A stretch of DNA of 64,000 nucleotides, from the NCBI RefSeq assembly GCF_030013595.1, contig NZ_CP122771.1. One strand, given 5' to 3'. Position 1 is the stretch's first letter; each line of letters begins with the position of its first letter. The stretch is from Escherichia coli (GTDB lineage Bacteria > Pseudomonadota > Gammaproteobacteria > Enterobacterales > Enterobacteriaceae). Made by a program: the position numbers and the translations under genes. The notes under the pieces are model-generated. The model worked only from the letters and a program-made list of their open reading frames with translations, ran no database searches and was not told where the DNA came from. Shown in pieces: positions 3,259 through 60,551 of this stretch.

Positions 3259-3887
3259 GATGCCGGGGGCTGATTGCCCTGCTGATATGGGGGCAGAGTG
3301 TGGCCGCCGCCGATCTTGGTACCTGGGGCGATCTGTGGCCGGTAAAGGAGCCGGACATGCTGACGGTGATCATGCAGCGCCTGACGGCACTGGAGCTGTC
3401 CGGTGAGATGGGCCGGAAAATGGATGTCTTTAAGGAGCGGGTGATCCGCAACAGTCTGCGGCCCCCTGCCGTGCCCGGTATCGGACGCACGGAGAAATAC
3501 GGTAGCCGGTTGTTTGACCCGTCCGTCAGACTGGCTGCGGATATCCGGGATAACGAAGGGCGGGTGTTTGCCCGTCAGGGTGAAGTGATGAATCCGCTGC
3601 AGTATGTTCCTTTTAACCAGACGCTGTATTTCATCAATGGCGATGATCCGGCGCAGGTGGCCTGGATGAAACGCCAGACGCCGCCCACACTGGAGAGCAA
3701 AATCATCCTCGTGCAGGGCAGTATCCCGGAGATGCAGAAGTCTCTGGACAGCCGTGTTTACTTTGACCAGAACGGTGTGCTCTGCCAGCGCCTCGGCATT
3801 GATCAGGTCCCGGCACGGGTGAGCGCCGTTCCCGGCGATCGCTTCCTGAAGGTGGAATTTATTCCGGCAGAGGAGGGCAGAAAATGA
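3255..3887 (+). CDS. traW: TraW pilus assembly protein
   Basis: ATG at 3255 overlaps the trbI stop; signal peptide MRCRGLIALLIWGQSVAAADLG; 210 aa as in F TraW. Confidence 0.9.
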   Translation: MRCRGLIALLIWGQSVAAADLGTWGDLWPVKEPDMLTVIMQRLTALELSGEMGRKMDVFKERVIRNSLRPPAVPGIGRTEKYGSRLFDPSVRLAADIRDNEGRVFARQGEVMNPLQYVPFNQTLYFINGDDPAQVAWMKRQTPPTLESKIILVQGSIPEMQKSLDSRVYFDQNGVLCQRLGIDQVPARVSAVPGDRFLKVEFIPAEEGRK

Positions 3888-18054: not shown

Positions 18055-20280
18055 ATGAGTTTTAACGCAAAGGATATGACCCAGGGCGGTCAGATTGCGT
18101 CCATGCGTATCCGCATGTTCAGCCAGATCGCCAATATCATGCTTTACTGCCTGTTTATTTTTTTCTGGATACTCGTTGGTCTGATTTTATGGGTAAAAAT
18201 AAGCTGGCAGACGTTTGTGAACGGCTGTATTTACTGGTGGTGTACCACGCTGGAAGGCATGCGGGATTTAATCAAGTCCCAGCCAGTATATGAGATCCAG
18301 TATTACGGCAAAACCTTCCGGATGAACGCGGCTCAGGTACTGCATGATAAATACATGATCTGGTGCGGTGAGCAGCTATGGTCCGCATTCGTTCTGGCGT
18401 CTGTCGTGGCCCTGGTTATTTGCCTGATTACCTTCTTTGTTGTTTCCTGGATTCTGGGGCGTCAGGGTAAACAACAGAGCGAAAATGAAGTCACAGGTGG
18501 TCGTCAGCTGACAGACAATCCGAAAGATGTTGCCCGGATGCTGAAAAAAGACGGCAAGGACTCCGATATCCGGATTGGCGACCTGCCGATTATCCGAGAT
18601 TCCGAAATCCAGAACTTCTGTCTGCACGGCACAGTCGGGGCCGGTAAGTCGGAGGTTATCCGTCGTCTGGCCAACTACGCCCGTAAGCGTGGTGATATGG
18701 TGGTGATTTATGACCGTTCAGGGGAATTTGTTAAAAGTTACTATGATCCCTCCATCGATAAAATCCTGAATCCGCTGGATGCCCGCTGTGCCGCATGGGA
18801 TTTGTGGAAGGAGTGCCTGACACAGCCGGATTTTGATAATACCGCGAACACGCTGATCCCTATGGGTACAAAAGAGGACCCGTTCTGGCAGGGGTCAGGA
18901 CGTACCATTTTTGCGGAAGCGGCGTACCTGATGCGTAATGACCCCAACCGCAGCTACAGCAAACTGGTGGACACACTGCTTTCCATCAAAATCGAAAAAC
19001 TGCGTACCTTCCTGCGTAATTCACCGGCAGCCAACCTGGTGGAAGAGAAAATTGAGAAAACGGCGATTTCCATCCGTGCTGTGCTGACCAACTACGTGAA
19101 AGCCATCCGTTACCTGCAGGGGATTGAGCATAACGGTGAGTCTTTTACCATCCGTGACTGGATGCGTGGTGTCCGGGAAGATCAGAAAAACGGCTGGCTG
19201 TTTATCTCGTCGAATGCCGACACCCATGCCTCCCTGAAGCCGGTGATCTCCATGTGGCTGTCCATTGCCATTCGTGGTCTGCTGGCAATGGGAGAAAACC
19301 GTAATCGTCGTGTGTGGTTTTTCTGTGACGAGTTACCCACGTTACACAAACTGCCGGACCTGGTGGAGATCCTGCCGGAAGCCCGTAAGTTCGGTGGCTG
19401 TTATGTGTTTGGTATCCAGTCCTATGCCCAGCTGGAAGATATCTACGGTGAGAAAGCGGCGGCCACGCTGTTTGACGTCATGAACACCCGTGCCTTTTTC
19501 CGTTCTCCCAGCCATAAGATTGCAGAGTTCGCTGCCGGTGAAATTGGTGAGAAAGAGCACCTGAAAGCCAGCGAGCAGTATTCCTACGGTGCTGACCCGG
19601 TACGTGACGGGGTATCGACCGGTAAGGATATGGAGCGTCAGACGCTGGTCAGTTATTCCGACATTCAGTCTCTGCCGGATCTGACCTGTTATGTCACTCT
19701 GCCCGGACCGTATCCGGCAGTCAAACTCTCTCTGAAATATCAGGCACGTCCGAAGGTTGCCCCGGAGTTTATTCCGCGTGACATCAACCCGGAAATGGAG
19801 AACCGTCTGAGTGCCGTACTTGCCGCAAGGGAAGCAGAAGGTCGCCAGATGGCCAGCCTCTTCGAACCGGAGGTTGCCTCCGGAGAAGGCGTGACTCAGG
19901 CTGAACAGCCACAACAGCCACAACAGCCACAACAGCCACAACAGCCACAACAGCCACAACAGCCACAACAGCCACAACAGCCACAACAGCCACAACAGCC
20001 AGTGTCTTCTGTCATCAATGATAAGAAGTCAGATGCAGGTGTGAGTGTTCCGGCAGGGGGGATCGAGCAGGAGCTGAAAATGAAACCGGAAGAAGAGATG
20101 GAACAGCAACTGCCACCCGGGATCAGTGAATCCGGTGAAGTGGTGGATATGGCCGCTTATGAGGCATGGCAACAGGAAAATCATCCGGACATCCAGCAGC
20201 ATATGCAGCGTCGTGAAGAGGTGAACATTAATGTACACCGGGAGCGCGGGGAGGATGTTGAGCCGGGAGATGATTTCTGA
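18055..20280 (+). CDS. traD: TraD, type IV coupling protein
   Basis: 741 aa, N-terminal TM segments, Walker [10 protein letters not shown]-terminal QQP repeat tract and acidic tail as in F/R100 TraD. Confidence 0.95.
19906..19995 (+). repeat. Tandem 9-bp repeat (cagccacaa) x10 encoding the (QQP)n tract of TraD
   Basis: Ten perfect 9-bp units read directly in the sequence. Confidence 0.9.
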
Positions 20281-29768: not shown

Positions 29769-29967
29769 TGTAAATAAAAAGCATACTTATTGGCTGGAGT
29801 GACGCCTTCGTGCTTCTGTAGTAAAAAGCGGGAAAGGCAGGTAATAGTCAGCAACAGGGAATGTGGTATTATCGCGGCGGGTGTCTGAGCCTTTCTGGTT
29901 CAGGCAAGACGCAGGTACCAGAAATGCGAAGACCCCACTCGTTAATCCATTAACTCGTGAGGCCTGC

Positions 29968-30174
29968 ATGAAGTACCTTAACACTACTGATTGTAGCCTC
30001 TTCCTTGCAGAGAGGTCAAAGTTTATGACGAAATATGCCCTTATCGGGTTGCTCGCCGTGTGCGCCACGGTGTTGTGTTTTTCACTGATATTCAGGGAAC
30101 GGTTATGTGAGCTGAATATTTACAGGGGAAATACAGTGGTGCAGGTAACTCTGGCCTACGAAGCACGGAAGTAA
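29968..30174 (+). CDS. SrnB' overlapping leader ORF (mok-like) of the srnB locus
   Basis: ATG 29968 in frame with the toxin; MKYLNTTDCSLFLAERSKF... precedes the toxin Met. Confidence 0.5.
   Translation: MKYLNTTDCSLFLAERSKFMTKYALIGLLAVCATVLCFSLIFRERLCELNIYRGNTVVQVTLAYEARK
30025..30174 (+). CDS. srnB: SrnB, Hok/Gef-family membrane toxin
   Basis: 49-aa peptide MTKYALIGLLAVCATVLCFSLIFRERLCELNIYRGNTVVQVTLAYEARK matches recalled F SrnB/Hok family. Confidence 0.8.
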   Translation: MTKYALIGLLAVCATVLCFSLIFRERLCELNIYRGNTVVQVTLAYEARK

Positions 30175-30706: not shown

Positions 30707-30949
30707 CTAAAATGTAGCGACATCACATTCTTGCCTGTTTCTGGTGTGCGTGATAGATTGCTGATCGTTTAAGGAATTTTGTGGCTGGCCACGCCGTAAG
30801 GTGGCAGGGAACTGGTTCTGATGTGGATTTACAGGAGCCAGAAAAGCGAAAACCCCGATAATCTTTCTATGTTTGGCGACGAAGAAGATTACCGGGGCCA
30901 TCTAAAAACCGTATAGCCAACAATTCAGCTATGCGGGGAGTATAGTTAT

Positions 30950-31024
30950 ATGCCCGGAAAAGTTCAAGACTTCTTTCTGTGCTCACTCCTTCTGCGCATT
31001 GTAAGTGCAGGATGGTGTGACTGA
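30950..31024 (+). CDS. tap: Tap leader peptide (RepA6) translationally coupled to repA1
   Basis: 24-codon [27 protein letters not shown] whose stop overlaps the repA1 GTG start, as in R1/R100. Confidence 0.55.
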
Positions 31025-31874
31025 TCTTCAACAAACGTATTACCGCCAGGTAAAGAACCCGAATCCGGTGTTCACACCCCGTGAAGGTGCCGGAACACTG
31101 AAGTTCTGCGAAAAACTGATGGAAAAGGCGGTGGGCTTCACCTCCCGTTTTGATTTCGCTATTCATGTGGCGCATGCCCGTTCGAAGGGACTGCGTCGGC
31201 GCATGCCACCGGTGCTGCGTCGACGGGCTATTGATGCACTGCTGCAGGGGCTGTGTTTCCACTATGACCCGCTGGCCAACCGTGTCCAGTGCTCCATCAC
31301 CACGCTGGCCATTGAGTGCGGGCTGGCGACGGAGTCTGCTGCCGGAAAACTCTCTATCACCCGAGCCACCCGCGCCCTGACGTTCCTCGCAGAGCTGGGC
31401 CTGATTACCTACCAGACGGAATATGACCCGCTTATCGGGTGCTACATTCCGACCGACATCACGTTCACACCGGCACTGTTTGCCGCTCTCGATGTGTCTG
31501 AGGTGGCGGTGGCAGCTGCGCGCCGCAGTCGTGTGGAATGGGAAAACAGACAGCGCAAGAAGCAGGGACTGGATGCACTGGGTATGGATGAACTGATAGC
31601 GAAAGCCTGGCGTTTTGTGCGTGAGCGTTTCCGCAGTTACCAGACAGAGCTTAAGTCCCGGGGAATAAAGCGTGCCCGTGCGCGTCGTGATGCGGACAGG
31701 GAACGTCAGGATATTGTCACCCTGGTGAAACGGCAGCTGACGCGCGAAATCGCGGAAGGGCGCTTCACTGCTAATCGTGAGGCAGTAAAACGCGAAGTGG
31801 AGCGTCGTGTGAAGGAGCGCATGATTCTGTCACGTAACCGTAATTACAGCCGGCTGGCCACAGCTTCCCCCTGA
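31017..31874 (+). CDS. repA1: RepA1, IncFII replication initiator (GTG start)
   Basis: 285 aa starting [30 protein letters not shown]; matches recalled R100 RepA1. Confidence 0.9.
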
Positions 31875-32049: not shown

Positions 32050-32058
32050 TTATCCACA
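32050..32058 (+). promoter_or_regulatory. DnaA box (TTATCCACA) in the probable oriR downstream of repA1
   Basis: Perfect consensus 9-mer about 175 bp after the repA1 stop, where the IncFII origin lies. Confidence 0.4.
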
Positions 32059-32786
32059 TTTAACTGCAAGGGACTTCCCCATAAGGTTACAACCGTTCAT
32101 GTCATAAAGCGCCAGCCGTCAGCGTTACAGGGTGCAATGTATCTTTTAAACACCTGTTTATATCTCCTTTAAACTACTTAATTACATTCATTTAAAAAGA
32201 AAACCTATTCACTGCCTGTCCTGTGGACAGACAGATATGCACCTCCCACCGCAAGCGGCGGGCCCCGACCAGAAACTATTTAGTTACAACACTCAAATAC
32301 AACCACCGGAAGAACCCCGGTCCCGCGCAGAACTGAAACCACAAAGCCCCTCCTCATAACTGAAAAGCGAGGCCGCCCCCGCCCAAAGGGCGGGAACAAC
32401 ATCGCTTTTAATTATGAATGTTGTAACTACATTATCATCGCTGCCAGTTCTCTGGCTGGAAGTCCTCAGTACACGCTCGTAAGCGGCCCTCACGGCCCGC
32501 TAACGCGGAGATACGCCCCGACTTCGGGTAAACCCTTGTCGGGACCACTCCGACCGCGCACAGAAGCTCTCTCATGGCTGAAAGCGGGTATGGTCTGGCA
32601 GGGCCGGGGATGGGTAAGGTGAAATCTATCAATCAGTACCGGCTTACGCCGGGCTTCGGCGGTTTTACTCCTGTATCATATGAAACAACAGAGTGCCGCC
32701 TTCCATGCCGCTGATGCGGCATATCCTGGTGACGATATCTGAATCGTTATATACTGTGTATATACGTAGTAATGACGAGGTGATAA

Positions 32787-33056
32787 ATGGCACAGGTTAA
32801 TATGAGTTTAAGAATCGACGCTGAACTGAAGGATGCTTTTATGGCCGCTGCAAAAAGCATGGACCGTAATGGCTCTCAGTTAATCCGGGATTTTATGCGC
32901 CAGACCGTTGAACGGCAGCATAATACCTGGTTCCGTGACCAGGTTGCGGCAGGACGTCAGCAACTCGAGCACGGCGATGTGCTTCCCCATGACATGGTCG
33001 AATCTTCTGCTGCTGCATGGCGGGATGAGATGAGCAGGAAGATTGCCGGTAAATGA
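32787..33056 (+). CDS. Ribbon-helix-helix antitoxin (RelB/ParD-like)
   Basis: 89 aa, MAQVNMSLRIDAELKDAFMAAAKSMDRNGSQLIRDFMRQ is a typical RHH; stop overlaps the downstream start (ATGATG). Confidence 0.7.
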   Translation: MAQVNMSLRIDAELKDAFMAAAKSMDRNGSQLIRDFMRQTVERQHNTWFRDQVAAGRQQLEHGDVLPHDMVESSAAAWRDEMSRKIAGK

Positions 33057-33217
33057 TGGAGATATTTTGGACCATGCTGGCCAGCCAGGACAGGAAGCGC
33101 ATTCGTGAGTACATTGCGGAGCAGAACCTGATGGTCGCCATTGAACTGGACGAACGGATTGGTTATTTCGGACGAACGCACCGGCTTACGCCGGTTTTAC
33201 ATCTGTACTACATGTAA
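33056..33217 (+). pseudogene. Truncated RelE/ParE-like toxin (53 codons)
   Basis: Reading frame MEIFWTMLASQDRKRIREYIAEQNLMVAIELDERIGYFGRTHRLTPVLHLYYM runs into the repeat motif accggcttacgccgg and stops; too short for a functional toxin. Confidence 0.45.
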
Positions 33218-36904: not shown

Positions 36905-36928
36905 GGACGCTGTTGCGTCCTTTTTTCT
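36905..36928 (+). terminator. Rho-independent terminator after stbB
   Basis: GGACGC-tgtt-GCGTCC followed by a T-run. Confidence 0.6.
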
Positions 36929-37258
36929 TTTCCGACAAAGGATGTCGCCGGGCTCCTCTTTTTACTGCGCCGGCTGACGCGGCGCGGCAGGAACGCTGCC
37001 TGTGGTCAGTATCCCGCGTCCGGCCGGGCACGGGACGGGCGCTTTTACCGCTCCCGGCTGGCGTCGGTGGCAGTGTACGCCAGCCCGTCGCCCTTTTCTG
37101 ATGAACGCCCTTCAAGCCGCTTTCGCGGCATATCCTCGCCGTCAAACAGACGACGGCTGCGGTATTCCACGGTCGGCCTGACCCGTTATCGGACGCGGTG
37201 AACAGCCCACAGGCCGCGGGGAACGGGCGCCACAGGGGCGCCCTCCCGGTGCTCTCTG
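36924..37258 (+). repeat. Leading-region repeat type A, copy 1 (Frpo/ssi-like)
   Basis: About 335 bp nearly identical to 38244-38567; GC-rich with multiple hairpins, upstream of a leading-region gene. Confidence 0.7.
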
Positions 37259-38227: not shown

Positions 38228-38250
38228 GGGCGGGCAACCGCCCGTTTCTT
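38228..38250 (+). terminator. Terminator-like hairpin after the 308-aa gene
   Basis: GGGCGG-gcaa-CCGCCC followed by a T-run. Confidence 0.5.
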
Positions 38251-38567
38251 TTCCGGTAAAGGATGTCGCCGTGCTCCTCTTTTTACTGCGCCGGCTGACG
38301 CGGCGCGGCATAAACGCTGCCTGTGGTCAGTGTCCCGCGTCCGGCGGGCACGGGACGGACGCTTTTACCGCTCCCGGCTGGCGTCAGTGACAGTGTACGC
38401 CAGCCCGTCGCCCTTTCTGATGAACGCCCTTCAAGCCGCTTTCGCGGCATAGCCTTGCCGTCAAACAGACGACGGCTGCGGTATTCCACGGTCGGCCTGA
38501 CCCGTTACCGGACGCGGTGAACAGCCCACAGGCCGCGGGGAACGGGCACCACAGGGGTGCCCTCCCG
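38244..38567 (+). repeat. Leading-region repeat type A, copy 2 (Frpo/ssi-like)
   Basis: Near-identical to 36924-37258. Confidence 0.7.
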
Positions 38568-38595
38568 GTGCCCTCTGTAAGAGAAGGAGGCTTTT

Positions 38596-42458: not shown

Positions 42459-43072
42459 GCTGCCCTGATTCTGACTACTGCAGTGTTGTCCTGTCTGCCT
42501 GCGCACCTTCGGCTCCCGGCTGCCTGGCGGCATCCGGTCGTCAGGCCCGACTCCGACAGGCAGCTGCTGGCGCACCCGCCAGTCTCCGCCGAACCCGCTG
42601 GCGCGGTTTCGGGCTGTCGCTACGGTCCGATGCGTGAAAACCCCGGGCTTGCAGCGACCGTTCCGGTCGCGCCACCCTTGTCGCGCCGTGGCCTGCGCTC
42701 CCGGCATCCCGGCAAAAGGCCGCCGGGATGTAAGGCGCAACGCCGTTTCGCGCACGCGCTCTCCGTCGTTGCGGCGGGTCCCTGCTCATTGCCTGCCGGG
42801 TGCCACACACCCGTATGAGTCCCTGTCGCCGGGGGCTGATACAGCCACAACCTGCCGCACTGACTGTCCAGGGTAAATGAACAGCCCACAAAATTTTTTA
42901 CCCAAAACCCGGTAAAAAATTTTGCGTTCTGCCCGGGACAGGTGCGTCAGGCCGTGGCAGTGATGCCCCTTGCGGCGAAGGTTCTCAAACGGGTGAAGTT
43001 CATACCACAGGGAATACAGCAGCAGGTTCCCGCGAAACGTCAAAACCGCGGCTCCCGAAACTCAACGGGTGA
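42459..43072 (+). repeat. Leading-region repeat type B, copy 1 (Frpo-like; contains a 14-bp perfect hairpin at 42888-42926)
   Basis: About 600 bp shared with 45926-46373 and 56247-56835; conserved hairpin CAAAATTTTTTACC/GGTAAAAAATTTTG. Confidence 0.7.
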
Positions 43073-43303
43073 TGTTCTTTAAAAATCAGGATTTATTTCA
43101 GGCTCCGGCAATATGCATTTATTTGTTCTGTCAGTCATCCGGCTGGCAGGTAATGAGAACGCAGGAACAGAAGGAGGAAAACACCGGAGAACGTCAGACG
43201 CAGATATGAAAAAAGCAGGTCAGGGACCTGCTTAATCCACACCGCAGAGACTGCACGAACAGTCTTTACGGTTTCATTAATTAACGTCATAAGAGGCTAA
43301 ATT

Positions 43304-43534
43304 ATGACAGTAAGTATTGTTTCACCTTCCGCAGCGGCTGTAAAGCCCCGCCGTCATCCCCGTTTCAGACGCGAAGACATCCCCGCGCCGGAAATTGACC
43401 CCGTGCTGAAAGCCTTCGGGCGACACATTGCCCGGAGTTTTCACCGGGGGCGTGGTGTACACATCCCCGCCATGAAAAACACGACCTTCGGGCAGGTGCT
43501 CCGCACACTCGAACTGAAACGCGCTTTTAACTGA
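43304..43534 (+). CDS. Hypothetical small basic protein (76 aa)
   Basis: ATG with upstream gaggc; first ORF after repeat B copy 1. Confidence 0.4.
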   Translation: MTVSIVSPSAAAVKPRRHPRFRREDIPAPEIDPVLKAFGRHIARSFHRGRGVHIPAMKNTTFGQVLRTLELKRAFN

Positions 43535-45775: not shown

Positions 45776-45925
45776 TTCTTCTTTTTTCTGATGCTCTCAT
45801 TACTGTCTGTTTTGTTGTTCTCCTGCTTATGCCTTTTCCGGGCGTCCCCCTGGCGGGGCGGGCTGTCGTGAACGGAGCCAGCGAAGCTGTCTCCGCCCTG
45901 GCGGGCTTCCATCCCTGACGCCAAA

Positions 45926-46373
45926 CCCCCTGGCTTGCAGCGACCGTTCCGGTCGCGCCGCCTCTGTCGCGCCGTGACCTGCGCTCCCGGCATCCCGGCA
46001 AAAGGCCGCCGGGATGTGAGGGGCAACGCCGTTTCGCGCACGCGCTCTTCGTCGTTGCGGCGGGTGCCTGCCCGTTGTTGTATCCGGTGCCCTGCACCCG
46101 TTTAAGCCCCTGTCGCCGGGGGCAAAGACAGCCACAACCGTCTCCGCCAGTCCAGGGGTGAAATGCACATCCCACAAAAGTTTTTGCCCAAAAGCCGGCA
46201 AAAACTTTTGTGGTCTGCCCCCGGACAGTCGTTTCCGGCCGTGGCAGTGATGCCCCTTGCGGCGAAGGTTCTCAAACGGGTGATGGTTAATACCGGAGGG
46301 AACAAACGGCAGGTCCCCGCAAAACGTCAAAACCGCGGCTCCCGAAACTCAACGGGTGATGGGGGCTGAAAAC
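45926..46373 (+). repeat. Leading-region repeat type B, copy 2 (5'-truncated; hairpin at 46174-46212)
   Basis: Aligns with copy 1 from ...ggcttgcagcgaccgttcc onward; hairpin arms carry compensatory changes. Confidence 0.7.
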
Positions 46374-46394
46374 ATCAACAGAAGGAGACACATC

Positions 46395-53063: not shown

Positions 53064-53374
53064 CTTAAATGTCCCTTTACTGCGAAAATGGACATTAGTA
53101 TCGGAAACAGGAAAGGGAGGCGAAAGACGGTTTAAATGAGACGGTTACCGTGATGCGGCAACAATCACATGGATTTCCCGTGAACGGTCTGAATGAGCGG
53201 ATTATTTTCAGGGAAAGTGAGTGTGGTCAGCGTGCAGGTATATGGGCTATGATGTGCCCGGCGCTTGAGGCTTTCTGCCTCATGACGTGAAGGTGGTTTG
53301 TTGCCGTGTTGTGTGGCAGAAAGAAGATAGCCCCGTAGTAAGTTAATTTTCATTAACCACCACGAGGCATCCCT

Positions 53375-53587
53375 ATGTCTAGTCCACATCAGGATAGCCT
53401 CTTACCGCGCTTTGCGCAAGGAGAAGAAGGCCATGAAACTACCACGAAGTTCCCTTGTCTGGTGTGTGTTGATCGTGTGTCTCACACTGTTGATATTCAC
53501 TTATCTGACACGAAAATCGCTGTGCGAGATTCGTTACAGAGACGGACACAGGGAGGTGGCGGCTTTCATGGCTTACGAATCCGGTAA
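53375..53587 (+). CDS. mok: Mok (FlmC) leader ORF overlapping hok
   Basis: 70-codon ORF overlapping hok in a different frame, as in hok/sok loci. Confidence 0.5.
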
Positions 53588-53902: not shown

Positions 53903-56246
53903 GGGTCGGGTAGCAGCGGCACATTGCTGCGCCGCCGCCCCCTAAGAACGGAGCGTGCGAGTTTTCCCGCACTCCGCTCAAGCCTTTATAAGTGCTTTCG
54001 GTGAGCACCGGCTTCCCTGCTGTGTAACTGTCGGTGGCAGTTCGGATGTAACAACTCGAGATTGGTCAGTTCGTCACTGCCGCCCATAACTTTCCTGATC
54101 CGGTGATGTATATTCCATCCGGTCTGGTTGGTTATGAGTTGTCCGCACTGCGGACAGTGTTTCCCCTGCCTCTTCCAGAGTTGAACTACTGTCTTCATCT
54201 TCTTTGATTTGCCTTTCCAGATTAGATCCAGACGACGTTCAAAGTAGATTTCCATTCCGGGGGTGTATGGTGTTGCTTCGCCTTTGATTTTTATATGGCG
54301 CTTTATCGGTGTTTCCATTGCCCGGAAGAGTGTCAGAATTTTCCCTTCCGGGGTTATGGCTTTAAAGATCCAGCGCCTGCCTTCAAAGGAGAAGTATCGT
54401 CCGGCGATCCACCGCAATCCTTTCCGGGGATGCCGTCTTACACACCATCGCCATATAGCTCGCCAGATTTGGGTGTCGACATAATTAAATGTTTCTTTCG
54501 CCACGACGTGTCGGTGATAGGTAGCCCATCCCCGGATCACCGGGTTTAGCTGGCCTATCAGTTTCCATGCCGGGAGCGTCGGATTGCGTTTAATTATTTC
54601 TCTGACTTTACAGAGGAAGTTCTTCAGGTTTTTCTTCGACGGTTTAATCAGCATTTTACCGTTGTACTTCCTGACGTTCTGCCCTAAAAAGTCGAAGCCT
54701 TTATCTATATGTGTGATCGCTGTTTTTTCTTCCGACAGTTCCAGCCCTCGTTCGCGCATGAAAGCTGCAATCAGTGGTCTGACCTCATTTTCCAGCAATT
54801 CACGGGAGCTGCCTGAACAGATGAAATCATCAGCATATCTCACATAATTCACCTGGTGCTTTGCACTGTGATAACCACTTTTCCTGAACGTTTGCATCAG
54901 TTCCTTCTCCAGTCCGTCCAGAGCCATGTTGGCGAGAACAGGGGATATGATGCCTCCCTGCGGTGTCCCGCTGTTCGTATGGTTAAACACGCCTCTTTCC
55001 ATGTAACCTGCTTTCAACCATTTTTTAAGCAGTCTCCTGTCCATCGGAATATGGGAAAGCAGCCAGTCATGGCTGATGTTATCGAAACACCCTTTAATAT
55101 CGCCCTCCAGTATCCATTTGGGCGATACTTTCTGGCTCATCCGCAGAAAAATGGACTCAATGGCGTCATGCGTGCTGCGCATTGGTCTGAAACCATAGCT
55201 GTTATGGTCAGCAGTGGTCTCGGATACGGGTTCCAGAGCCAGCAGCCACAGTGCCTGCATGGCCCGGTCCCTCATTGTGGGTATGCCCAGCGGTCGCGTT
55301 TTGCCGTTTGATTTTGGGATATGTATTCGCCGTAGTGGCTGTGGCCTGTAACCACACAGATTCAGGCTGCATATTCCTTCCCATTTCTCCTTCGGTGTGT
55401 GCCATATTTTTCCGTCAATACCGGGTGTCCTTTTACCGGTATTTTCAGTTACACGCCTGACAGCCACGGCTTTGCCGGAGAATGAGCGGGTGAGGATGCG
55501 CTGTAGTTCTCTGACCTGCCGCCATTGTTGCTGTCGGGTTGCCTTTGCAATCCGTAACTGTAGCTTTCGCACCCGGGCATGGCATGCTTTCCAGTTTATG
55601 GTGTGCCAGCCTGTCGGGTGGGGTATCGTGGACACACTGATGTGTGTATTCATCTCGCTGATATCCTTTTGACTGCTTTACAGCTTTTCATGCAATTAAA
55701 GACCAGACGGAAGTCTGCCCGCTTTCGCGTCGGGGAACCTGCCCCGTATCCCGGTTATTACGGCCGGGCATTCGCTTTTTCCGTCCTCCTATGCCCGCAC
55801 CGCTAACAGTGTTCCTTGCGGTTCACCTGCCTGTGAGGCAGCGATACGGGTTTACCAGGTTCCGCTTAACATACAGAGGGTCAGGGCGGGTTCTGTCTCT
55901 TCACCGGGGGTCTCTGCGCCCATGTGCTCCCTGTGCGCGAGGTAGCAACCGGACCCCGTACCTTTTGGTTCAGGCCTGTCAGCATCTTTGGCCTGTTGCC
56001 GATAACGGTGTTTATCAACAGTTCACATGTGTTAACCCTTCTGACCAGCCTTGCTCTCCTGCCGCATGATGCTTGCAGCAAGGTAAAGCCCCTCACGGGG
56101 CTTTACCCGGGCTGACGCCCGGCTCTCGTTGTCCCGGGAGCTTCAGACCCCGCCGTTGCCGGCAACGCCTGTCCCGGTAGGCTACAGCTAATGGGATAGC
56201 TGGTTTTATCAATGTAAAACAATACGTTAAGCGACTTCCTGTCGCA
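53903..56246 (-). mobile_element. Group II intron (about 2.34 kb) inserted in a type B leading-region repeat; low-coordinate boundary uncertain by about 10 bp
   Basis: Minus-strand 5' end GTGCGAC at 56246; domain V GAGCGGAGTGCGGGAAAACTCGCACGCTCCGTTC at 53946-53979; flanks rejoin to match uninterrupted copy 1 at 42459-42510. Confidence 0.8.
53986..55653 (-). CDS. Group II intron-encoded protein (reverse transcriptase / maturase / HNH endonuclease)
   Basis: 555 aa with RT motifs (YADD), maturase X region and C-terminal HNH-like Cys/His cluster. Confidence 0.9.
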   Translation of the reverse strand: MNTHISVSTIPHPTGWHTINWKACHARVRKLQLRIAKATRQQQWRQVRELQRILTRSFSGKAVAVRRVTENTGKRTPGIDGKIWHTPKEKWEGICSLNLCGYRPQPLRRIHIPKSNGKTRPLGIPTMRDRAMQALWLLALEPVSETTADHNSYGFRPMRSTHDAIESIFLRMSQKVSPKWILEGDIKGCFDNISHDWLLSHIPMDRRLLKKWLKAGYMERGVFNHTNSGTPQGGIISPVLANMALDGLEKELMQTFRKSGYHSAKHQVNYVRYADDFICSGSSRELLENEVRPLIAAFMRERGLELSEEKTAITHIDKGFDFLGQNVRKYNGKMLIKPSKKNLKNFLCKVREIIKRNPTLPAWKLIGQLNPVIRGWATYHRHVVAKETFNYVDTQIWRAIWRWCVRRHPRKGLRWIAGRYFSFEGRRWIFKAITPEGKILTLFRAMETPIKRHIKIKGEATPYTPGMEIYFERRLDLIWKGKSKKMKTVVQLWKRQGKHCPQCGQLITNQTGWNIHHRIRKVMGGSDELTNLELLHPNCHRQLHSREAGAHRKHL

Positions 56247-56835
56247 CGCGCACCTTCGGCTCCCGGCTGCCTGGCGGCATCCGGTCGTCAGGCCCGACTC
56301 CGACAGGCAGCTGCTGGCGCACCTGCCAGTCTCCGCCGAACCCGCTGGCGCGGTTTCGGGCTGTCGCTACGGTCCGATGCGTGAAAACCCCGGGCTTGCA
56401 GCGACCGTTCCGGTCGCGCCGCCTCTGTCGCGCCGTGGCCTGCGCTCCCGGCATCCCGGCAAAAGGCCGCCGGGATGTAAGGCGCAACGCCGTTTCGCAA
56501 ACCGCGCTTCACGTCGTTGCGGCGGGTCCCTGCCCGTTGTTGTGTCCGGTGCCATTCACCTGTTTAAGCCCCTGTCGCCGGGGGCATAGACAGCCACAAC
56601 CGTCTCCGCCAGTCCAGGGGTGAAATGCACATCCCGCAAAACTTTTTGCCCAGAAGCAGGCAAAAACTTTTGCGGTCTGCCCCCGGACAGTCGTTTCCGG
56701 CCGTGGCAGTGATGCCCCATGCGGCGAAGGTTCTCAAACAGGTGATGGTGAATACCGGAGGGAACAAAAGGCAGGTCCCCGCAAAACGTCAAAACCGCGG
56801 CTCCCGAAACTCAACAGATGATGGGGGCTGAAAAC
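56247..56835 (+). repeat. Leading-region repeat type B, copy 3 (its 5' portion at 53862-53902 is separated by the intron; hairpin at 56635-56674)
   Basis: Aligns with copy 1 from gcgcaccttcggctcccggctgcctggcgg onward. Confidence 0.7.
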
Positions 56836-56855
56836 CAGAGAGAGGAGAAAGCAGG

Positions 56856-57260: not shown

Positions 57261-58082
57261 ATGCGATTAGCTTCCCGTTTTGGTCGGTATAATTCCATCC
57301 GCCGTGAACGTCCTTTAACGGATGATGAATTAATGCAGTTCGTGCCTTCGGTATTTTCCGGTGATAAACATGAGTCCCGGAGTGAACGTTATACGTATAT
57401 TCCAACAATCAATATCATCAATAAGTTACGTGATGAAGGTTTCCAGCCATTCTTTGCCTGTCAGAGTCGGGTTCGTGATTTGGGACGTCGCGAATACAGT
57501 AAACATATGTTACGTCTTCGCAGGGAAGGGCATATTAACGGACAGGAAGTTCCTGAAATTATCCTGCTTAATTCACATGATGGTTCATCCAGTTATCAGA
57601 TGATCCCCGGAATTTTTCGTTTTGTCTGCACAAATGGCCTGGTGTGCGGAAATAATTTTGGCGAAATCCGCGTTCCACATAAAGGTGATATTGTCGGGCA
57701 GGTTATCGAGGGAGCGTATGAAGTGCTCGGTGTCTTTGATAAGGTCACTGATAATATGGAGGCGATGAAAGAAATTCATCTTAACAGTGACGAGCAACAT
57801 TTATTTGGCAGAGCTGCACTGATGGTCAGGTATGAAGATGAAAATAAAACGCCAGTGACACCTGAACAGATAATTACTCCCCGTCGTCGGGAAGACAAAC
57901 AGAACGATCTCTGGACAACCTGGCAGCGGGTTCAGGAGAATATGATAAAAGGTGGATTATCGGGGCGAAGTGCCTCCGGGAAAAATACCAGGACAAGAGC
58001 CATTACAGGTATTGATGGTGATATAAGAATCAACAAGGCGTTATGGGTGATTGCCGAACAGTTCAGAAAGTGGAAGTCATGA
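57261..58082 (+). CDS. Conserved leading-region protein (273 aa)
   Basis: RBS aagga then ATG 57261; uninterrupted ORF. Confidence 0.55.
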   Translation: MRLASRFGRYNSIRRERPLTDDELMQFVPSVFSGDKHESRSERYTYIPTINIINKLRDEGFQPFFACQSRVRDLGRREYSKHMLRLRREGHINGQEVPEIILLNSHDGSSSYQMIPGIFRFVCTNGLVCGNNFGEIRVPHKGDIVGQVIEGAYEVLGVFDKVTDNMEAMKEIHLNSDEQHLFGRAALMVRYEDENKTPVTPEQIITPRRREDKQNDLWTTWQRVQENMIKGGLSGRSASGKNTRTRAITGIDGDIRINKALWVIAEQFRKWKS

Positions 58083-58091
58083 TAATATAAG

Positions 58092-58120
58092 TAAAGCCCC
58101 GAAAAAATTTTCGGGGTTTT
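58092..58120 (+). terminator. Rho-independent terminator
   Basis: AAAGCCCCGAAAAAATTTTCGGGGTTTT perfect hairpin with T-run, 10 bp after the stop. Confidence 0.7.
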
Positions 58121-58378
58121 ACTTATATTATCATTTTTCGGCATTGCTGTGTCGTCTGATATACCTCAATTTCATCGACCGGCTTTCCGGTTGTCTGTAA
58201 ATATTGTGCCCGCGAAAAATGGTCTGGCAGGAGGCTGCGCAGTTACCGGGTATATATAAGATGGGTTCCCGCTTCGCGGGGCTTCGGCCAGTCAGTATTG
58301 TCACTCATATGATATTTTTGTGTGTGGCCTTCCATGCCGCTTTTGCGGCATAACCGGTATCTGACAATGTCTGTAAGA

Positions 58379-58934: not shown

Positions 58935-59200
58935 ACAAAAAGGCTCAACAGGTTGGTGGTTCTCACCACCAAAAGCACCACACACTACGCAAAAACAAGT
59001 TTTTGCTGATTTGCCTTTTAAATCATGTAATTAACAAATGCTATTTATATTTAATAATTCTGAATTATTAAATAGAGAGTCGTTGGCGATCCTGTTACGA
59101 CCCTATAGCGACCCTTATTAGGATCAGTACTGACAATTTTCATGAAAAACATTGATATATATTAGGGGCGCCACTAGCGCCGGATCGCATTTTTTTATAG
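58935..59200 (+). other. oriT region with R100-type nic sequence (nic near 58979/58980 on the minus strand)
   Basis: Minus-strand TTTGCGTAGTGTGT^GGTGCTTTTGGTGGTGAGAACCACC matches recalled F-family oriT with R100-type nic core; followed by AT-rich region and inverted repeats before traM. Confidence 0.7.
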
Positions 59201-59687: not shown

Positions 59688-59794
59688 AAAAGAATTAAAA
59701 GTTGATTTACTTCAAATAACAGGATTTTGATCTGGTTCAATTTGATGACAATTAACCACATAAAGGGTATATTAATTATGTGGTTAATGCCACG

Positions 59795-59875
59795 TTAAAA
59801 ATTTAGTTTAAATCGCCGATGCAGGGAGAGCGACCTCCCTGCATCGACTGTCCATAGAATCCTTTGAGAGGAGGT
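59795..59875 (-). ncRNA. finP: FinP antisense RNA (approximate position)
   Basis: Region upstream of the traJ start contains hairpin TGCAGGGAG...CTCCCTGCA (59819-59845) where the traJ leader/finP stem-loops are expected; coordinates inferred. Confidence 0.35.
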
Positions 59876-59879
59876 TCCT

Positions 59880-60551
59880 ATGTATCCGACGGATCGTAGA
59901 CAACTTAATACTGAACGTCAAATATATTTGGATAAACAGTCTTTTGTAGATGTTTTTTCAATCCCTGCTTGCGTTCGAAATACTAATGGAGATTTTATCG
60001 GCTACAATGAAAAATTCTCTAAAGAATTTATAGGTAGTCTTGATATCAAAGAGTGGTTTTACTCCCTTCCTGTACAAGTAGCTACATCGTTTTTAAGAGA
60101 AGAACTGGATGCTATGTCTTTGCCTTCGTCCATGAATAAAATACAGAGCGTGGCTATAGGTGATAAACTCTGGCTGGTACAATTTATACCATTAATATAT
60201 GGGGAGGTGGTTAATGTTTTATGGCTTTTTTTCTGCAAAAATTCTAATGTGATAGTGGATTATTGTAGAGGATTACGTTCAAATATAACAAATGACAGAA
60301 TGCTTGAATTTAAAAACAAATCAACGGAAATCCAATGGAAAGTTTTTATTCTTTATTCATTTGGTTTTTGTCATGAATCGATAGCATCTCTTTTGTCTAT
60401 TACTAATGGTTCTTCCCGGAATGCAATTTCAGAAGTGTATAAGTTTTTCGGTATACATTCAAAACATGATTTGTTAATGATTTTTCATACAAGTAGGATG
60501 CATAGTTTATTTTTTGATGAATTGTTTTTTATTTTAAAATGTGCTGAATAG
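59880..60551 (+). CDS. traJ: TraJ, positive regulator of the tra operon
   Basis: 223-aa AT-rich ORF between traM and traY; RBS gagagg before ATG. Confidence 0.85.

What the first reader, a model, noticed from the sequence alone, without database searches (positions are those of the whole stretch)
32635..32740. Dispersed element of about 100 bp with palindrome ATGCCGC-N4-GCGGCAT at recombination-prone junctions
Sequences at 32635-32740 and 58262-58368 share blocks gggcttcggc ... tcatatga ... gccttccatgccgc-N4-gcggcata ... tatctga. A deleted version lies at 33181-33217 at the toxin truncation point, and the same palindrome core recurs inside both type A repeats (around 37115-37131 and 38436-38452). 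Candidates are single-strand initiation sites, protein-binding sites or a miniature mobile element.
Basis: seen in the sequence. Interest (0 to 1): 0.5.

Follow-up and report, generated by a model that had tools for sequence, protein, structure and literature searches.

The report
Primase priming site, duplicated near oriT
The repeated 135-bp hairpin element is most likely the "G site", a phage-G4-like signal where host primase starts DNA synthesis next to the IncFII plasmid origin; a second, apparently undescribed copy sits on the transferred strand about 0.7 kb from the conjugation nick.

Summary
Two direct copies of about 135 bp (32588-32723 and 58217-58352) are each other's best match in the window.

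The window is an almost complete IncFII F-like plasmid. Copy A lies 716 bp after repA and about 360-400 bp past oriR. In 70+ loci, including R100 and IncI1 ColIb-P9, A-type copies keep this position after an IncFII or IncI rep gene. From memory of papers I could not read, this is where the primase-only "G site/ssiA" of R1/R100 maps.

On the - strand the element reads: three hairpins, then CCTGC(C/T)A(G/A)(A/G)CC. Many variants carry the exact phage alpha3 start sequence CCTGCTAAGCC. pSLT carries the G4 version, CTGCAAAGCC.

Copy B always lies between ORF273 (DUF932) and ORF169 (SLT). It is on the transferred strand, 627-760 nt from nic. It may prime complementary-strand synthesis in the recipient, or it may be a decaying relic.

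33180-33217 is a truncated copy of a divergent subfamily. The "type A repeats" share only a 25-nt imperfect motif. There is no sign of a mobile element.

Copy A is known biology. Copy B is a modestly interesting new member.

The parts
32588..32723 (-). Copy A: G-site-type element downstream of oriR. The functional strand is inferred to be the - strand, the leading-strand template for rightward replication.
   Evidence: Covariance model 164.8 bits. It lies 716 bp after the repA stop, as in about 50 other loci at 708-746 bp. R100 carries the same element at the same place, 165 bits.
32590..32602 (-). Start block of copy A: ATGGTCTGGCAGG on +, CCTGCCAGACCAT on -. The CTG is the complement of 32599-32601. 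The predicted primer starts at 32600 and runs rightward.
   Evidence: The CCTG block is kept in 60 of 62 A-type and 16 of 17 B-type distinct sequences. Variants carry CCTGCTAAGCC, which equals the alpha3 oric start, and pSLT carries CTGCAAAGCC, which equals the G4 start.
32634..32636 (-). Proximal CTG (TACTG on -), 2 nt 3' of hairpin a. This is an alternative primer start at 32635, giving a primer 5'-AGUACCGG...
   Evidence: G4 has hairpin I, then CTA, then CTG, and its primer begins AGUAGGG. However, this CTG is present in only 45 of 63 A-type variants and in no B-type variant.
32639..32652 (-). Hairpin a of copy A: CCGGC-TTAC-GCCGG on +. On - the loop region reads GGCGTAAGCCG.
   Evidence: The middle pair covaries: G:C in A-type, C:G in B-type, and T:A in L145 (alignment). 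The loop region resembles the top of hairpin I in G4 (GGCGAAAGCCG) and alpha3 (GGCGTTAGCCG).
32658..32700 (-). Hairpin b of copy A: base GGCGG/CCGCC, with the palindrome TCATATGA (32676-32683) at the tip.
   Evidence: Three base pairs show changes on both sides between the A and B types, and 99.3% of cells are paired.
32705..32722 (-). Hairpin c of copy A: ATGCCGC-TGAT-GCGGCAT.
   Evidence: The stem is 100% paired across 80 distinct sequences, and the loop varies freely. Plasmid homology ends directly after it.
58217..58352 (-). Copy B: a paralogue on the transferred strand, lying between the DUF932/ORF273 stop and the SLT/ORF169 stop.
   Evidence: Covariance model 97.2 bits. All 33 B-type loci lie 134-137 bp after DUF932 (a 34th lies at 51 bp) and within about 25 bp of the SLT stop. 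It is present in F and R100 and in about 4,190 plasmid records.
58219..58231 (-). Start block of copy B: CCTGCCAGACCAT on -. The predicted primer starts at 58229 and runs towards nic.
   Evidence: The 13-mer is identical to the one in copy A. It is also retained in the divergent B copy of L253.
58268..58280 (-). Hairpin a of copy B: CCCGC-TTC-GCGGG.
   Evidence: It carries a compensatory change relative to copy A. In F, L253 and other variants it has C-to-T changes that pair only on the + strand.
58286..58329 (-). Hairpin b of copy B: base GGCCA/TGGCC, with TCATATGA at 58305-58312.
   Evidence: The base pairs are compensatory relative to copy A. The inner stem does not fit the A-type model.
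58334..58351 (-). Hairpin c of copy B: ATGCCGC-TTTT-GCGGCAT.
33180..33217 (-). Truncated remnant of a second-subfamily element (hairpin a plus half of hairpin b, with a 9-nt deletion). It is fused to yacB after codon 37.
   Evidence: nhmmer finds it. L200 has the same junction. Full second-type copies lie 0.2-2.5 kb after intact yacB in L173, L177 and L243, scoring 86-94 bits.
37109..37132 (-). Related motif CCTTCAAGCCGCTTTCGCGGCATA inside type A repeat 1. The palindrome is imperfect.
   Evidence: nhmmer E 0.017 and covariance model 11.6 bits. The rest of the repeat is not significantly similar.
38428..38451 (-). The same motif inside type A repeat 2, upstream of the DNA methylase gene.
   Evidence: nhmmer E 0.032 and covariance model 10 bits. 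Homologous motifs occur in F, ColIb-P9 and pSLT upstream of the methylase gene.
31017..31874 (+). Context: the IncFII repA gene.
32051..32059 (+). Context: the dnaA box TTATCCACA, taken as the left end of oriR.
   Evidence: Read. The extent of oriR (about 188 bp) is from memory of Masai et al. 1983.
58979..58980 (-). Context: the oriT nick (GTGTGT^GGTGC on the - strand). The - strand is therefore the transferred strand, and copy B lies 627-760 nt from its 5' end.
   Evidence: The nic sequence of F and R100 is from memory.

Best explanation
The element is a single-strand priming signal of the phage G4 type.

Proposed mechanism. When the - strand becomes single-stranded, three hairpins fold and keep a stretch free of SSB. 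Host primase DnaG alone then starts an RNA primer at a CTG near the 3' end of the element. DNA polymerase III extends that primer through the hairpins.

Copy A. It is the 'G site / ssiA' of the IncFII replicon. After RepA opens oriR, the helicase exposes the site about 360-400 nt downstream on the leading-strand template. The leading strand starts there and runs away from the origin. Predicted starts are window 32600, or less likely 32635.

Copy B. It is a paralogue in the same orientation on the transferred strand, about 750 nt from its 5' end. If active, a primer starting at 58229 would be extended towards nic. That would make ORF169 and oriT double-stranded early. After the strand is recircularised, synthesis could continue round the plasmid, as it does on a G4 circle.

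What is shown: the repeat, its fixed positions, the conserved folded structure, and the match of the start block to G4 and alpha3.

What is inferred: primase dependence, the exact start site, and any activity of copy B.
For: 1. The repeat is real and specific.

2. The context is that of a replicon component.
- repA, then the dnaA box at 32051, then a Ter-like pair, then the element.
- Every A-type locus with an upstream gene lies 708-746 bp (one at 906 bp) after an IncFII RepA or IncI RepZ stop, in the same orientation. The downstream cargo varies.
- R100 has the element at the same place. ColIb-P9 has it between repZ and yacA.
- A published mini-R1 map lists 'ssiA' next to oriR1 (PMC10989972).

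3. The structure is conserved.
- 90.4% of cells are paired, against 84.8 +/- 0.4 in shuffles (0 of 500 reach the observed value).
- With partners slid by 1-3 columns, only 24-46% are paired.
- Five pairs in stems a and b show changes on both sides.

4. There is strand-specific similarity to phage origins.
- G4 reads hairpin I, CTA, CTG, CAAAGCC, and its primer is annotated as starting at that CTG.
- alpha3 reads hairpin I, CTC, CTG, CTAAGCC.
- The - strand 3' end of the element reads CCTGC(C/T)A(G/A)(A/G)CC, and many variants have the exact 11-mer CCTGCTAAGCC.
- The unrelated-looking pSLT RepFII site has a strong hairpin (z -5.4) directly followed by CTGCAAAGCC. It is on the same strand, 635 bp after repA.

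5. The variable flank is on the 5' side of the - strand. The conserved start block is on the 3' side, as a G4-type signal requires.

6. The primase preference for 3'-GTC-5' on the template is stated in PMC3167613.
Against: - Neither BLAST nor the covariance model detects overall homology to G4 oric. The best model hit in the G4 genome scores 6 bits and lies elsewhere.
- In the window copies the conserved CTG is 37 nt from the nearest hairpin, not 3 nt as in G4. The CTG that is adjacent to hairpin a is missing in 29% of A-type variants and in all B-type variants.
- The window copies carry CCAGACC, not C(A/T)AAGCC, after the CTG.
- The test for which strand keeps pairing through G-T wobble gave no consistent answer.
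- Copy B shows signs of weak constraint. Its hairpin mismatches are not compensated in F and L253. It is decayed in pSLT. In an IncFII(K) plasmid a gene occupies its position.
- The papers that mapped the G site (Masai and Arai 1989; Bernander et al. 1992; Nomura et al. 1991; Tanaka et al. 1991) are not in the library. The link to the experimentally defined site therefore rests on position and on memory.
Confidence: 0.65

Rival explanations
1. Copy A is the functional G site, but copy B is a non-functional relic. It would be a piece of an old replicon edge left next to ORF169 by recombination, and it survives only because the whole leading region is young and nearly clonal.
For: - B differs among plasmids about as much as its flanks do.
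- The more divergent B in L253 has uncompensated mismatches in hairpins a and c and has lost the CATATG tip.
- F has two C.A mismatches in hairpin a on the transferred strand.
- pSLT has lost hairpin b.
- An IncFII(K) plasmid has a DUF5983 gene at that position.
- B lacks the CTG adjacent to hairpin a.
Against: - The 13-mer start block is identical in A and B even though the copies are only about 65% identical overall. It is also kept in L253.
- The stems of a and b differ from A by compensatory changes, not random ones.
- The orientation places the G4-like strand on the transferred strand.
Confidence: 0.3
2. Copy B works on the + strand, which is retained in the donor. There it would prime replacement-strand synthesis behind TraI as the transferred strand is unwound. 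This would be analogous to oriR and its G site, but on the opposite strand of the element.
For: - Several B variants (F, L220/L241, L226) have C-to-T changes in hairpin a. These keep T.G pairing only on the + strand.
- From memory, older work (Kingsman and Willetts 1978) suggested that donor conjugal synthesis needs de novo priming.
Against: - On the + strand, no conserved CTG or start block follows the hairpins.
- For A-type elements the 3' flank on that strand is the variable one.
- L253 keeps hairpin c better on the - strand.
- A and B are direct repeats although the forks run in opposite directions, so one strand cannot serve as the leading-strand template in both places.
Confidence: 0.08
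3. The palindromes (ATGCCGC-N4-GCGGCAT and TCATATGA) are binding sites for a dimeric protein on double-stranded DNA, for example a plasmid or host factor acting at both the replication and transfer origins.
For: - The stem of hairpin c never changes sequence in 80 distinct copies while its loop varies. A sequence-specific site would behave this way.
- A similar motif recurs in the type A repeats of several plasmids.
Against: - Stems a and b change sequence but keep pairing.
- The loop of hairpin c, which would be the centre of a duplex site, keeps its length but not its sequence.
- No candidate protein is known.
- An invariant stem is equally expected if primase reads the folded hairpin.
Confidence: 0.1
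4. It is a miniature mobile or recombination-promoting element that inserts at, or creates, module junctions.
For: - There are several full or partial copies per plasmid.
- Homology breakpoints fall exactly at its end.
- A truncated copy lies at the yacB deletion point.
- In some plasmids yacAB is bracketed by two copies.
Against: - Only three position classes are seen in more than 100 loci, each at a fixed distance from the same neighbouring genes.
- The two ends show no inverted-repeat relation to each other, and no associated transposase was seen.
- No scattered copies turned up in F, R100, pSLT or ColIb-P9.
- Breakpoints at the edge of an essential replicon module are expected without any special activity.
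Confidence: 0.04
5. It acts as RNA, for example as a 3' UTR or terminator of ORF169 and a leader or terminator upstream of yacA, or as an Frpo-like single-strand promoter.
For: - Copy A contains a weak terminator-like hairpin plus TTTT on the + strand.
- Copy B would be transcribed as the ORF169 3' end.
- The related motif lies inside repeats that probably act as single-strand promoters (PMC12672017).
Against: - The terminator-like feature is absent from B.
- A-type copies are conserved whether or not yacA follows.
- There is no Rfam match.
- No -35/-10 hexamers lie in the stems.
- It is about 135 nt long, against about 300 nt for Frpo, and it shows no similarity to the three Frpo-like repeats in the window.
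Confidence: 0.05

Closest known systems
G site of plasmid R1, ssiA of R100, and the ssi near the ColIb-P9 origin (G4-type, primase-dependent priming signals). References from memory: Masai and Arai 1989 JBC 264:8082; Nomura et al. 1991 Gene 108:15; Tanaka et al. 1991 Plasmid 25:125; Bernander et al. 1992 EMBO J 11:4481.
   Same: Copy A occupies the reported place, about 400 bp downstream of oriR. It is 96-100% identical across IncFII plasmids, including R100. It is also present after repZ in ColIb-P9. I regard copy A as this element.
   Different: None is expected for copy A, but the published coordinates could not be read. Copy B, the second-type copy after yacAB, and the motif in the type A repeats are not, to my knowledge, part of the published description.
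Origins of complementary-strand synthesis (oric) of phages G4 and alpha3
   Same: - One strand carries three hairpins followed on the 3' side by a CTG start.
- The start block has the form CTG-C(A/T)AAGCC, identical in some element variants and in pSLT.
- The top of hairpin I reads GGCG(A/T)(A/T)AGCCG, compared with GGCGTAAGCCG in hairpin a.
- The middle hairpin has a palindromic tip: CTCGAG in G4 and CATATG here.
   Different: - No overall homology is detectable.
- The hairpins differ in size and sequence.
- The conserved CTG is 37 nt from the nearest hairpin, not 3 nt.
- The window copies have CCAGACC after the CTG.
Frpo / ssiD-ssiE single-strand promoters of the F leading region, and the class 2-3 single-strand promoters of pESBL (Masai and Arai 1997; PMC12672017)
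   Same: These are also hairpin elements that act on the transferred strand soon after entry, and they can supply primers. Copy B lies in the same region and on the same strand.
   Different: Frpo is a hairpin of about 300 nt that rebuilds -35/-10 boxes for RNA polymerase. The present element is about 135 nt, has no promoter hexamers, and shows no similarity to the three Frpo-like repeats of the window. With the type A (probably class 3) repeats it shares only a 25-nt motif.
phiX174-type primosome assembly sites (n'-pas, PriA-dependent; ColE1 ssiA/ssiB)
   Same: These are single-strand initiation signals made of hairpins, placed just downstream of a plasmid origin (PMC3167613).
   Different: They recruit PriA and the full primosome and do not depend on a defined CTG start block. 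The match of the start block to G4 and alpha3 points to the primase-only type. PriA dependence was not testable.
RSF1010 ssiA/ssiB
   Same: They share the name and the general role of a single-strand priming hairpin (PMC8567376).
   Different: They are 40-nt inverted repeats read by the plasmid's own RepB' primase. The sequence is unrelated.

Membership tests
G4-type primase-dependent priming signal | Several stable hairpins on one strand, kept in evolution | tested here: met
   Three hairpins are present. 90.4% of cells are paired, against 84.8% in shuffles (0 of 500) and 24-46% with slid partners. Five pairs show compensatory changes. Fold z-scores are -2.4 for copy A and -3.0 for copy B on the - strand.
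G4-type primase-dependent priming signal | A 5'-CTG-3' start on the 3' side of the hairpins, within a block like CTG-C(A/T)AAGCC as in G4 and alpha3 | tested here: met
   CCTG is kept in 60 of 62 A-type and 16 of 17 B-type sequences at the 3' end of the - strand. The exact CCTGCTAAGCC of alpha3 occurs in many variants, and the CTGCAAAGCC of G4 occurs in pSLT. The window copies carry the variant CCTGCCAGACC.
G4-type primase-dependent priming signal | The start CTG lies within a few nucleotides of hairpin I, so that the primer copies that hairpin | tested here: inconclusive
   The conserved CTG is 37 nt from hairpin a. A CTG lying 2 nt from hairpin a exists in copy A, but it is absent from 29% of A-type variants and from all B-type variants. 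pSLT does have the hairpin directly abutting the CTG.
G4-type primase-dependent priming signal | Detectable overall sequence and structure homology to phage G4 oric | tested here: not met
   BLAST against phages gives no G4-group hit. The covariance model R1 does not hit the oric. Its best hit in the G4 genome scores 6 bits at 3583-3634. Only short blocks match.
G4-type primase-dependent priming signal | Priming needs only SSB and DnaG primase, with no RNA polymerase, PriA or DnaB | not testable with these tools
   This needs an in vitro single-strand to replicative-form assay.
G site / ssiA of IncFII and IncI replicons | A fixed place downstream of the origin, in a fixed orientation, across replicons | tested here: met
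   The element lies 708-746 bp (one locus at 906 bp) after the rep stop in all loci that include the upstream gene, for both IncFII RepA and IncI RepZ. In the window it is 716 bp after repA and about 360-400 bp after the inferred oriR.
G site / ssiA of IncFII and IncI replicons | The same sequence as in the plasmids where the site was mapped (R1, R100, ColIb-P9) | tested here: met
   R100 L251 6385-6528 scores 165 bits. ColIb-P9 L128 2196-2339 scores 156 bits. The R1 record is not in the collection.
G site / ssiA of IncFII and IncI replicons | Coincides with the published, experimentally mapped primer start | not testable with these tools
   The mapping papers are not held. Only a figure legend naming ssiA in mini-R1 was found.
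Frpo-type single-strand promoter | A hairpin of about 300 nt that rebuilds -35 and -10 boxes, with homology to Frpo/ssi1-3 | tested here: not met
   The element is about 135 nt. It has no promoter-like hexamers. It is not a member of the three Frpo-like repeat families D1, D3 and D5.
Miniature mobile element | Terminal inverted repeats, target duplications and many unrelated insertion sites | tested here: not met
   The ends (ATGGTCTGGCAGG and GCGGCAT) are not inverted repeats of each other (read). Target duplications were not looked for. Only fixed positions are seen in more than 100 loci.
Intrinsic terminator | A G+C-rich hairpin followed by a T run, shared by the copies | tested here: not met
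   There is a weak match in copy A only. Copy B has none. The real bidirectional terminator is at 58079-58134.

The most novel reading that the evidence does not exclude
Copy B is an active primase-only (DnaG + SSB) priming site on the transferred strand of F-like plasmids, about 750 nt from nic. It would start complementary-strand synthesis in the recipient independently of RNA polymerase and Frpo. First it would make ORF169 and oriT double-stranded. After recircularisation it would serve as a single G4-like origin for the whole strand. In addition, the hairpin-c/GGAAGG motif shared with the type A (probably class 3 single-strand promoter) repeats would be a common recognition module of transferred-strand elements.
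Probability: 0.22. Interest if true: 0.6.

Novelty: new member of a known kind. Interest (0 to 1): 0.33.

Why it matters
Copy A is textbook plasmid biology. It explains how IncFII and IncI replicons start their leading strand with host primase alone, and it needs no new idea.

The useful additions are as follows.

1. A precise sequence definition of the family: three hairpins plus a G4/alpha3-like start block, with a sharp right-hand boundary where plasmid cargo begins.

2. A conserved paralogue on the transferred strand next to ORF169, present in about 4,000 F-like plasmids. How complementary-strand synthesis starts in the recipient for F-like plasmids is still only partly explained by Frpo, and these plasmids carry no primase of their own. 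A primase-only site close to nic gives a simple, testable candidate.

3. A practical note for annotation: the edge of this element is where IncFII/IncI backbones and accessory modules such as yacAB or pemIK join.

Tried and rejected
- BLAST of both copies against 50,697 phage records found only chance-level hits and none to the G4 group.
- The covariance model of the element did not hit the oric in the G4 genome.
- Rfam gave no family at the element.
- The one genome-contig scan used too loose a pattern. It returned mostly GC-rich chance matches, and only three loci were real.
- tblastn with RepA, meant to reach divergent replicons, was saturated by near-identical IncFII plasmids.
- Using G-T versus A-C departures to decide the functional strand was inconclusive. 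Hairpin c favours the - strand with 3 cells, and B-type hairpin a favours the + strand with 3 cells.
- Extended homology between the element and the type A repeats looked significant at first (z 5-7). It fell to z of about 1-2.7 once the motif of about 30 nt was removed, so I reject it.
- The proximal TACTG was my first choice for the primer start. I demoted it because 29% of A-type variants and all B-type variants lack it.
- The 'tatctga' block is rejected as part of the element.
- Ten literature searches found no accessible text describing the R1/R100 G-site sequence or any ssi between ORF273 and ORF169. Direct look-ups of PMC98921, PMC4441207 and PMC557023 failed.
- The polarity of the Ter sites could not be used to settle the direction of replication, because the two sites are inverted and both lie between oriR and the element.
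Full report
**What the window is.** The best database match is a 67.6-kb E. coli IncFII conjugative plasmid. Nearly all genes are on the + strand, in this order:
- the tra operon, then finO;
- repA (31017-31874);
- the origin region (dnaA box at 32051-32059);
- the antitoxin gene yacA (32787-33056) and a truncated yacB;
- the leading region (ssb, psiB, anti-restriction genes and others);
- DUF932/ORF273;
- SLT/ORF169 on the - strand;
- oriT, then traM and the following genes.

The nick sequence GTGTGT^GGTGC lies on the - strand at 58980/58979. The - strand is therefore the transferred strand.

**Checking the observation.**
- The palindrome ATGCCGC-N4-GCGGCAT occurs exactly twice, with 0 expected.
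- The two surrounding regions are each other's best local match in the window: 53, against 16.7 +/- 2.2 for shuffles.
- The shared unit is larger than reported on the left. It begins with an identical 13-mer, ATGGTCTGGCAGG (32590 and 58219).
- It ends at GCGGCAT(A). Across 73 A-type loci, 25 different 12-mers follow that point.
- 33180-33217 is a true partial copy, but of a divergent second subfamily (see below).
- The type A repeats carry only an imperfect version, AAGCCGC-TTTC-GCGGCAT, inside a 24-nt related motif.

**Distribution.**
- Copy A matches at least 5,000 plasmid records, the cap of the search. Copy B matches about 4,190 records. Both are mostly 90-100% identical.
- A metagenome pattern scan gave 120 loci.
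- A profile of A plus B, and later a covariance model, recovered 107 elements, 80 of them distinct.
- Every A-type element whose upstream gene is on the contig lies 708-746 bp (one at 906 bp) after the stop of an IncFII RepA or an IncI-complex RepZ gene, in the same orientation.
- What follows an A-type element varies: yacA at 38 bp in about half of the loci, and other cargo in the rest.
- All 33 B-type elements with both neighbours on the contig lie 134-137 bp after DUF932 and within about 25 bp of the SLT stop; one further locus lies at 51 bp.
- R100 has both copies. F has copy B. ColIb-P9 has an A-type copy between repZ and yacA.
- These are position-specific components, not scattered insertions.

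**Structure.** On an alignment fitted to the model (80 distinct sequences), the three hairpins are 90.4% paired.
- Shuffles give 84.8 +/- 0.4% (0 of 500 reach the observed value), and sliding the partners gives 24-46%.
- Hairpin c, the palindrome, never changes its stem sequence while its loop varies freely.
- The base of hairpin b has three pairs, and hairpin a has two pairs, with changes on both sides. One pair of hairpin a is G:C in A-type and C:G in B-type, and T:A in L145 (alignment).
- Most of these changes trace to the single A/B split. The number of independent events is therefore small, but they are consistently compensatory.

**Which strand, and what kind of element.** From memory of the literature, R1 and R100 start their leading strand at a 'G site' about 400 bp downstream of oriR. 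That site is recognised by primase alone and resembles the complementary-strand origin of phage G4. ColIb-P9 has a G4-type ssi near its origin. I could not read these papers. The only accessible trace is a mini-R1 map that lists 'ssiA' beside oriR1.

The sequence evidence is as follows.
- G4 oric reads, 5' to 3' on the viral strand: hairpins III, II and I, then CTA-CTG-CAAAGCC. The primer is annotated as starting at that CTG.
- alpha3 reads hairpin I, then CTC-CTG-CTAAGCC.
- The - strand of the element reads hairpins c, b and a, then a spacer, then CCTGC(C/T)A(G/A)(A/G)CC.
- Many IncI and IncFII variants have the exact 11-mer CCTGCTAAGCC.
- The CCTG is kept in 60 of 62 A-type and 16 of 17 B-type sequences.
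- pSLT's RepFII replicon was missed by my models. On the same strand, 635 bp after repA, it has a very stable hairpin (z -5.4) directly followed by CTGCAAAGCC, the G4 sequence.
- The top of hairpin a (GGCGTAAGCCG) resembles the top of hairpin I in G4 (GGCGAAAGCCG) and alpha3 (GGCGTTAGCCG).
- The variable flank is on the 5' side of the - strand and the conserved block is on the 3' side, as a template-strand start signal requires.

Together this supports a G4-type priming signal on the - strand. That strand is the leading-strand template for replication moving away from repA. The predicted primer start is at 32600.

**Caveats on the family assignment.**
- A second CTG lies right next to hairpin a (start at 32635, primer AGUACC..., which recalls the AGUAGG... 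of G4). It is present in only 45 of 63 A-type variants and in no B-type variant.
- Neither BLAST nor the covariance model detects overall homology to G4. Membership of the G4-type class therefore rests on architecture, the start block and position, not on alignable homology.
- The G-T versus A-C wobble test for the functional strand was inconclusive.

**Copy B.** It has the same orientation as copy A, so its G4-like strand is the transferred strand.
- The start block is 750 nt, and the hairpins 627-717 nt, from the 5' end created at nic.
- A primer made there would be extended towards nic. It would convert ORF169 to duplex; the sense strand of ORF169 is the transferred strand, so the gene cannot be expressed from single-stranded DNA. 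The nic-proximal part of oriT would also become duplex.
- After recircularisation, synthesis could proceed round the plasmid.
- This is inference only, and the evidence for constraint on B is mixed.
  - For constraint: the start block is identical to that of copy A, and the stems differ from A by compensatory changes.
  - Against constraint: F and a more divergent copy (L253) have uncompensated mismatches. pSLT has lost hairpin b. An IncFII(K) plasmid has a DUF5983 gene at that position.
- I put about 0.3 on B being a relic.
- I do not know whether B was among the ssi mapped in F and R100 in 1991.

**The third copy and the 'junction' idea.**
- In L173, L177 and L243 an intact yacAB cassette is bracketed by the A-type element and a second, divergent element (86-94 bits) lying 0.2-2.5 kb downstream.
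- In the window, and in L200, yacB is cut after codon 37 and fused to a remnant of that second element. The remnant lacks the start block and hairpin c, so it cannot be functional.
- A-type homology also stops sharply after hairpin c. The element therefore does mark module boundaries.
- This is expected at the outer edge of an essential replicon part. The two ends of the element are not inverted repeats of each other, and no scattered copies were found. Target duplications were not looked for.

**The type A repeats.**
- They fold very strongly on the transferred strand: -101 kcal/mol, z -5.1.
- The second repeat sits just upstream of the DNA methylase gene. That is the position of the 'class 3' single-strand promoter described for pESBL and F (PMC12672017).
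- They share a motif of about 25-30 nt with the element: an imperfect hairpin c plus GAAGG.
- The apparent wider similarity disappeared when that motif was removed.
- Whether the motif has a common role is open.

**Verdict.**
- The repeat is real and is best explained as a primase priming signal.
- Copy A is an already known element.
- Copy B and the second-type copy are further members of the same family.
- Copy B gives a testable but unproven idea about how complementary-strand synthesis starts after conjugation.
- The mobile-element reading is not supported.

Noticed in passing
window 42501-43089, 45787-46376, 56248-56838: Three direct repeats of about 590 bp lie in the leading region (families D1, D3 and D5, 61-98% identity). 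By position and number they are probably the Frpo-type (class 1) single-strand promoters. I did not compare them with published Frpo sequences.
   Followed up: no
window 36924-37258 and 38245-38577: These are the 'type A' repeats. Repeat 1 folds at -101 kcal/mol on the transferred (- ) strand (z -5.1). The repeats lie upstream of a DUF1281 gene and of the DNA methylase (M.EcoGIX homologue). That is the position of the class 3 single-strand promoter reported in 2025 for pESBL and F. With the G-site elements they share only a motif of about 25 nt.
   Followed up: partly
window 53905-56203, - strand: Rfam finds a group II intron inserted in the leading region. Domains D1-D4 match at 56054-56203 (121.7 bits) and the 3' domains match at 53905-53981 (55.2 bits).
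   Followed up: no
window 32281-32292 (-) and 32418-32429 (+): Two Ter-like sites (GTTGTAACTA core) lie in inverted orientation between oriR and the priming element. Together they form a small fork trap. They are the only two such matches in the window, but about one match is expected by chance. The layout agrees with my memory of the Ter sites described for R1 and R100.
   Followed up: partly
window 58079-58134: A nearly perfect 27-nt inverted repeat with T runs on both sides lies right after DUF932/ORF273. It looks like a bidirectional terminator that would also end the ORF169 transcript after it has crossed copy B.
   Followed up: no
window 33056-33180; loci L173, L177, L243, L200: yacB is truncated after codon 37 in the window. 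In other IncFII and IncI plasmids the intact yacAB toxin-antitoxin cassette is bracketed by two G-site-like elements in direct orientation. This suggests the cassette moves or is lost by recombination between them.
   Followed up: partly
L126 (pSLT) 3405-3570, - strand: The IncFII(S) replicon of pSLT has no alignable copy of the element. At the equivalent place it has a very stable pair of hairpins (z -5.4) that ends directly in CTGCAAAGCC, the phage G4 start sequence. This looks like an independent version of the same device.
   Followed up: partly
L252 (Klebsiella IncFII(K) plasmid) 2655-2984: A DUF5983 gene fills the space between DUF932 and SLT where E. coli F-like plasmids carry copy B. 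That lineage therefore lacks copy B at this site.
   Followed up: partly
window 43210-43309 (-), 29879-30035 (+), 53259-53435 (+), 30844-30932 (-), 59778-59886: Rfam finds an AS-pc01 antisense RNA, two sok antitoxin RNAs, CopA, and the FinP / traJ 5' UTR pair. All are ordinary for an IncFII plasmid.
   Followed up: no
window 19879-20019: A run of 9-bp CAGCCACAA repeats (Gln-Pro-Gln) lies within the tra region of the + strand. From memory this matches the C-terminal repeat of TraD in F-like plasmids. The gene was not checked here.
   Followed up: no
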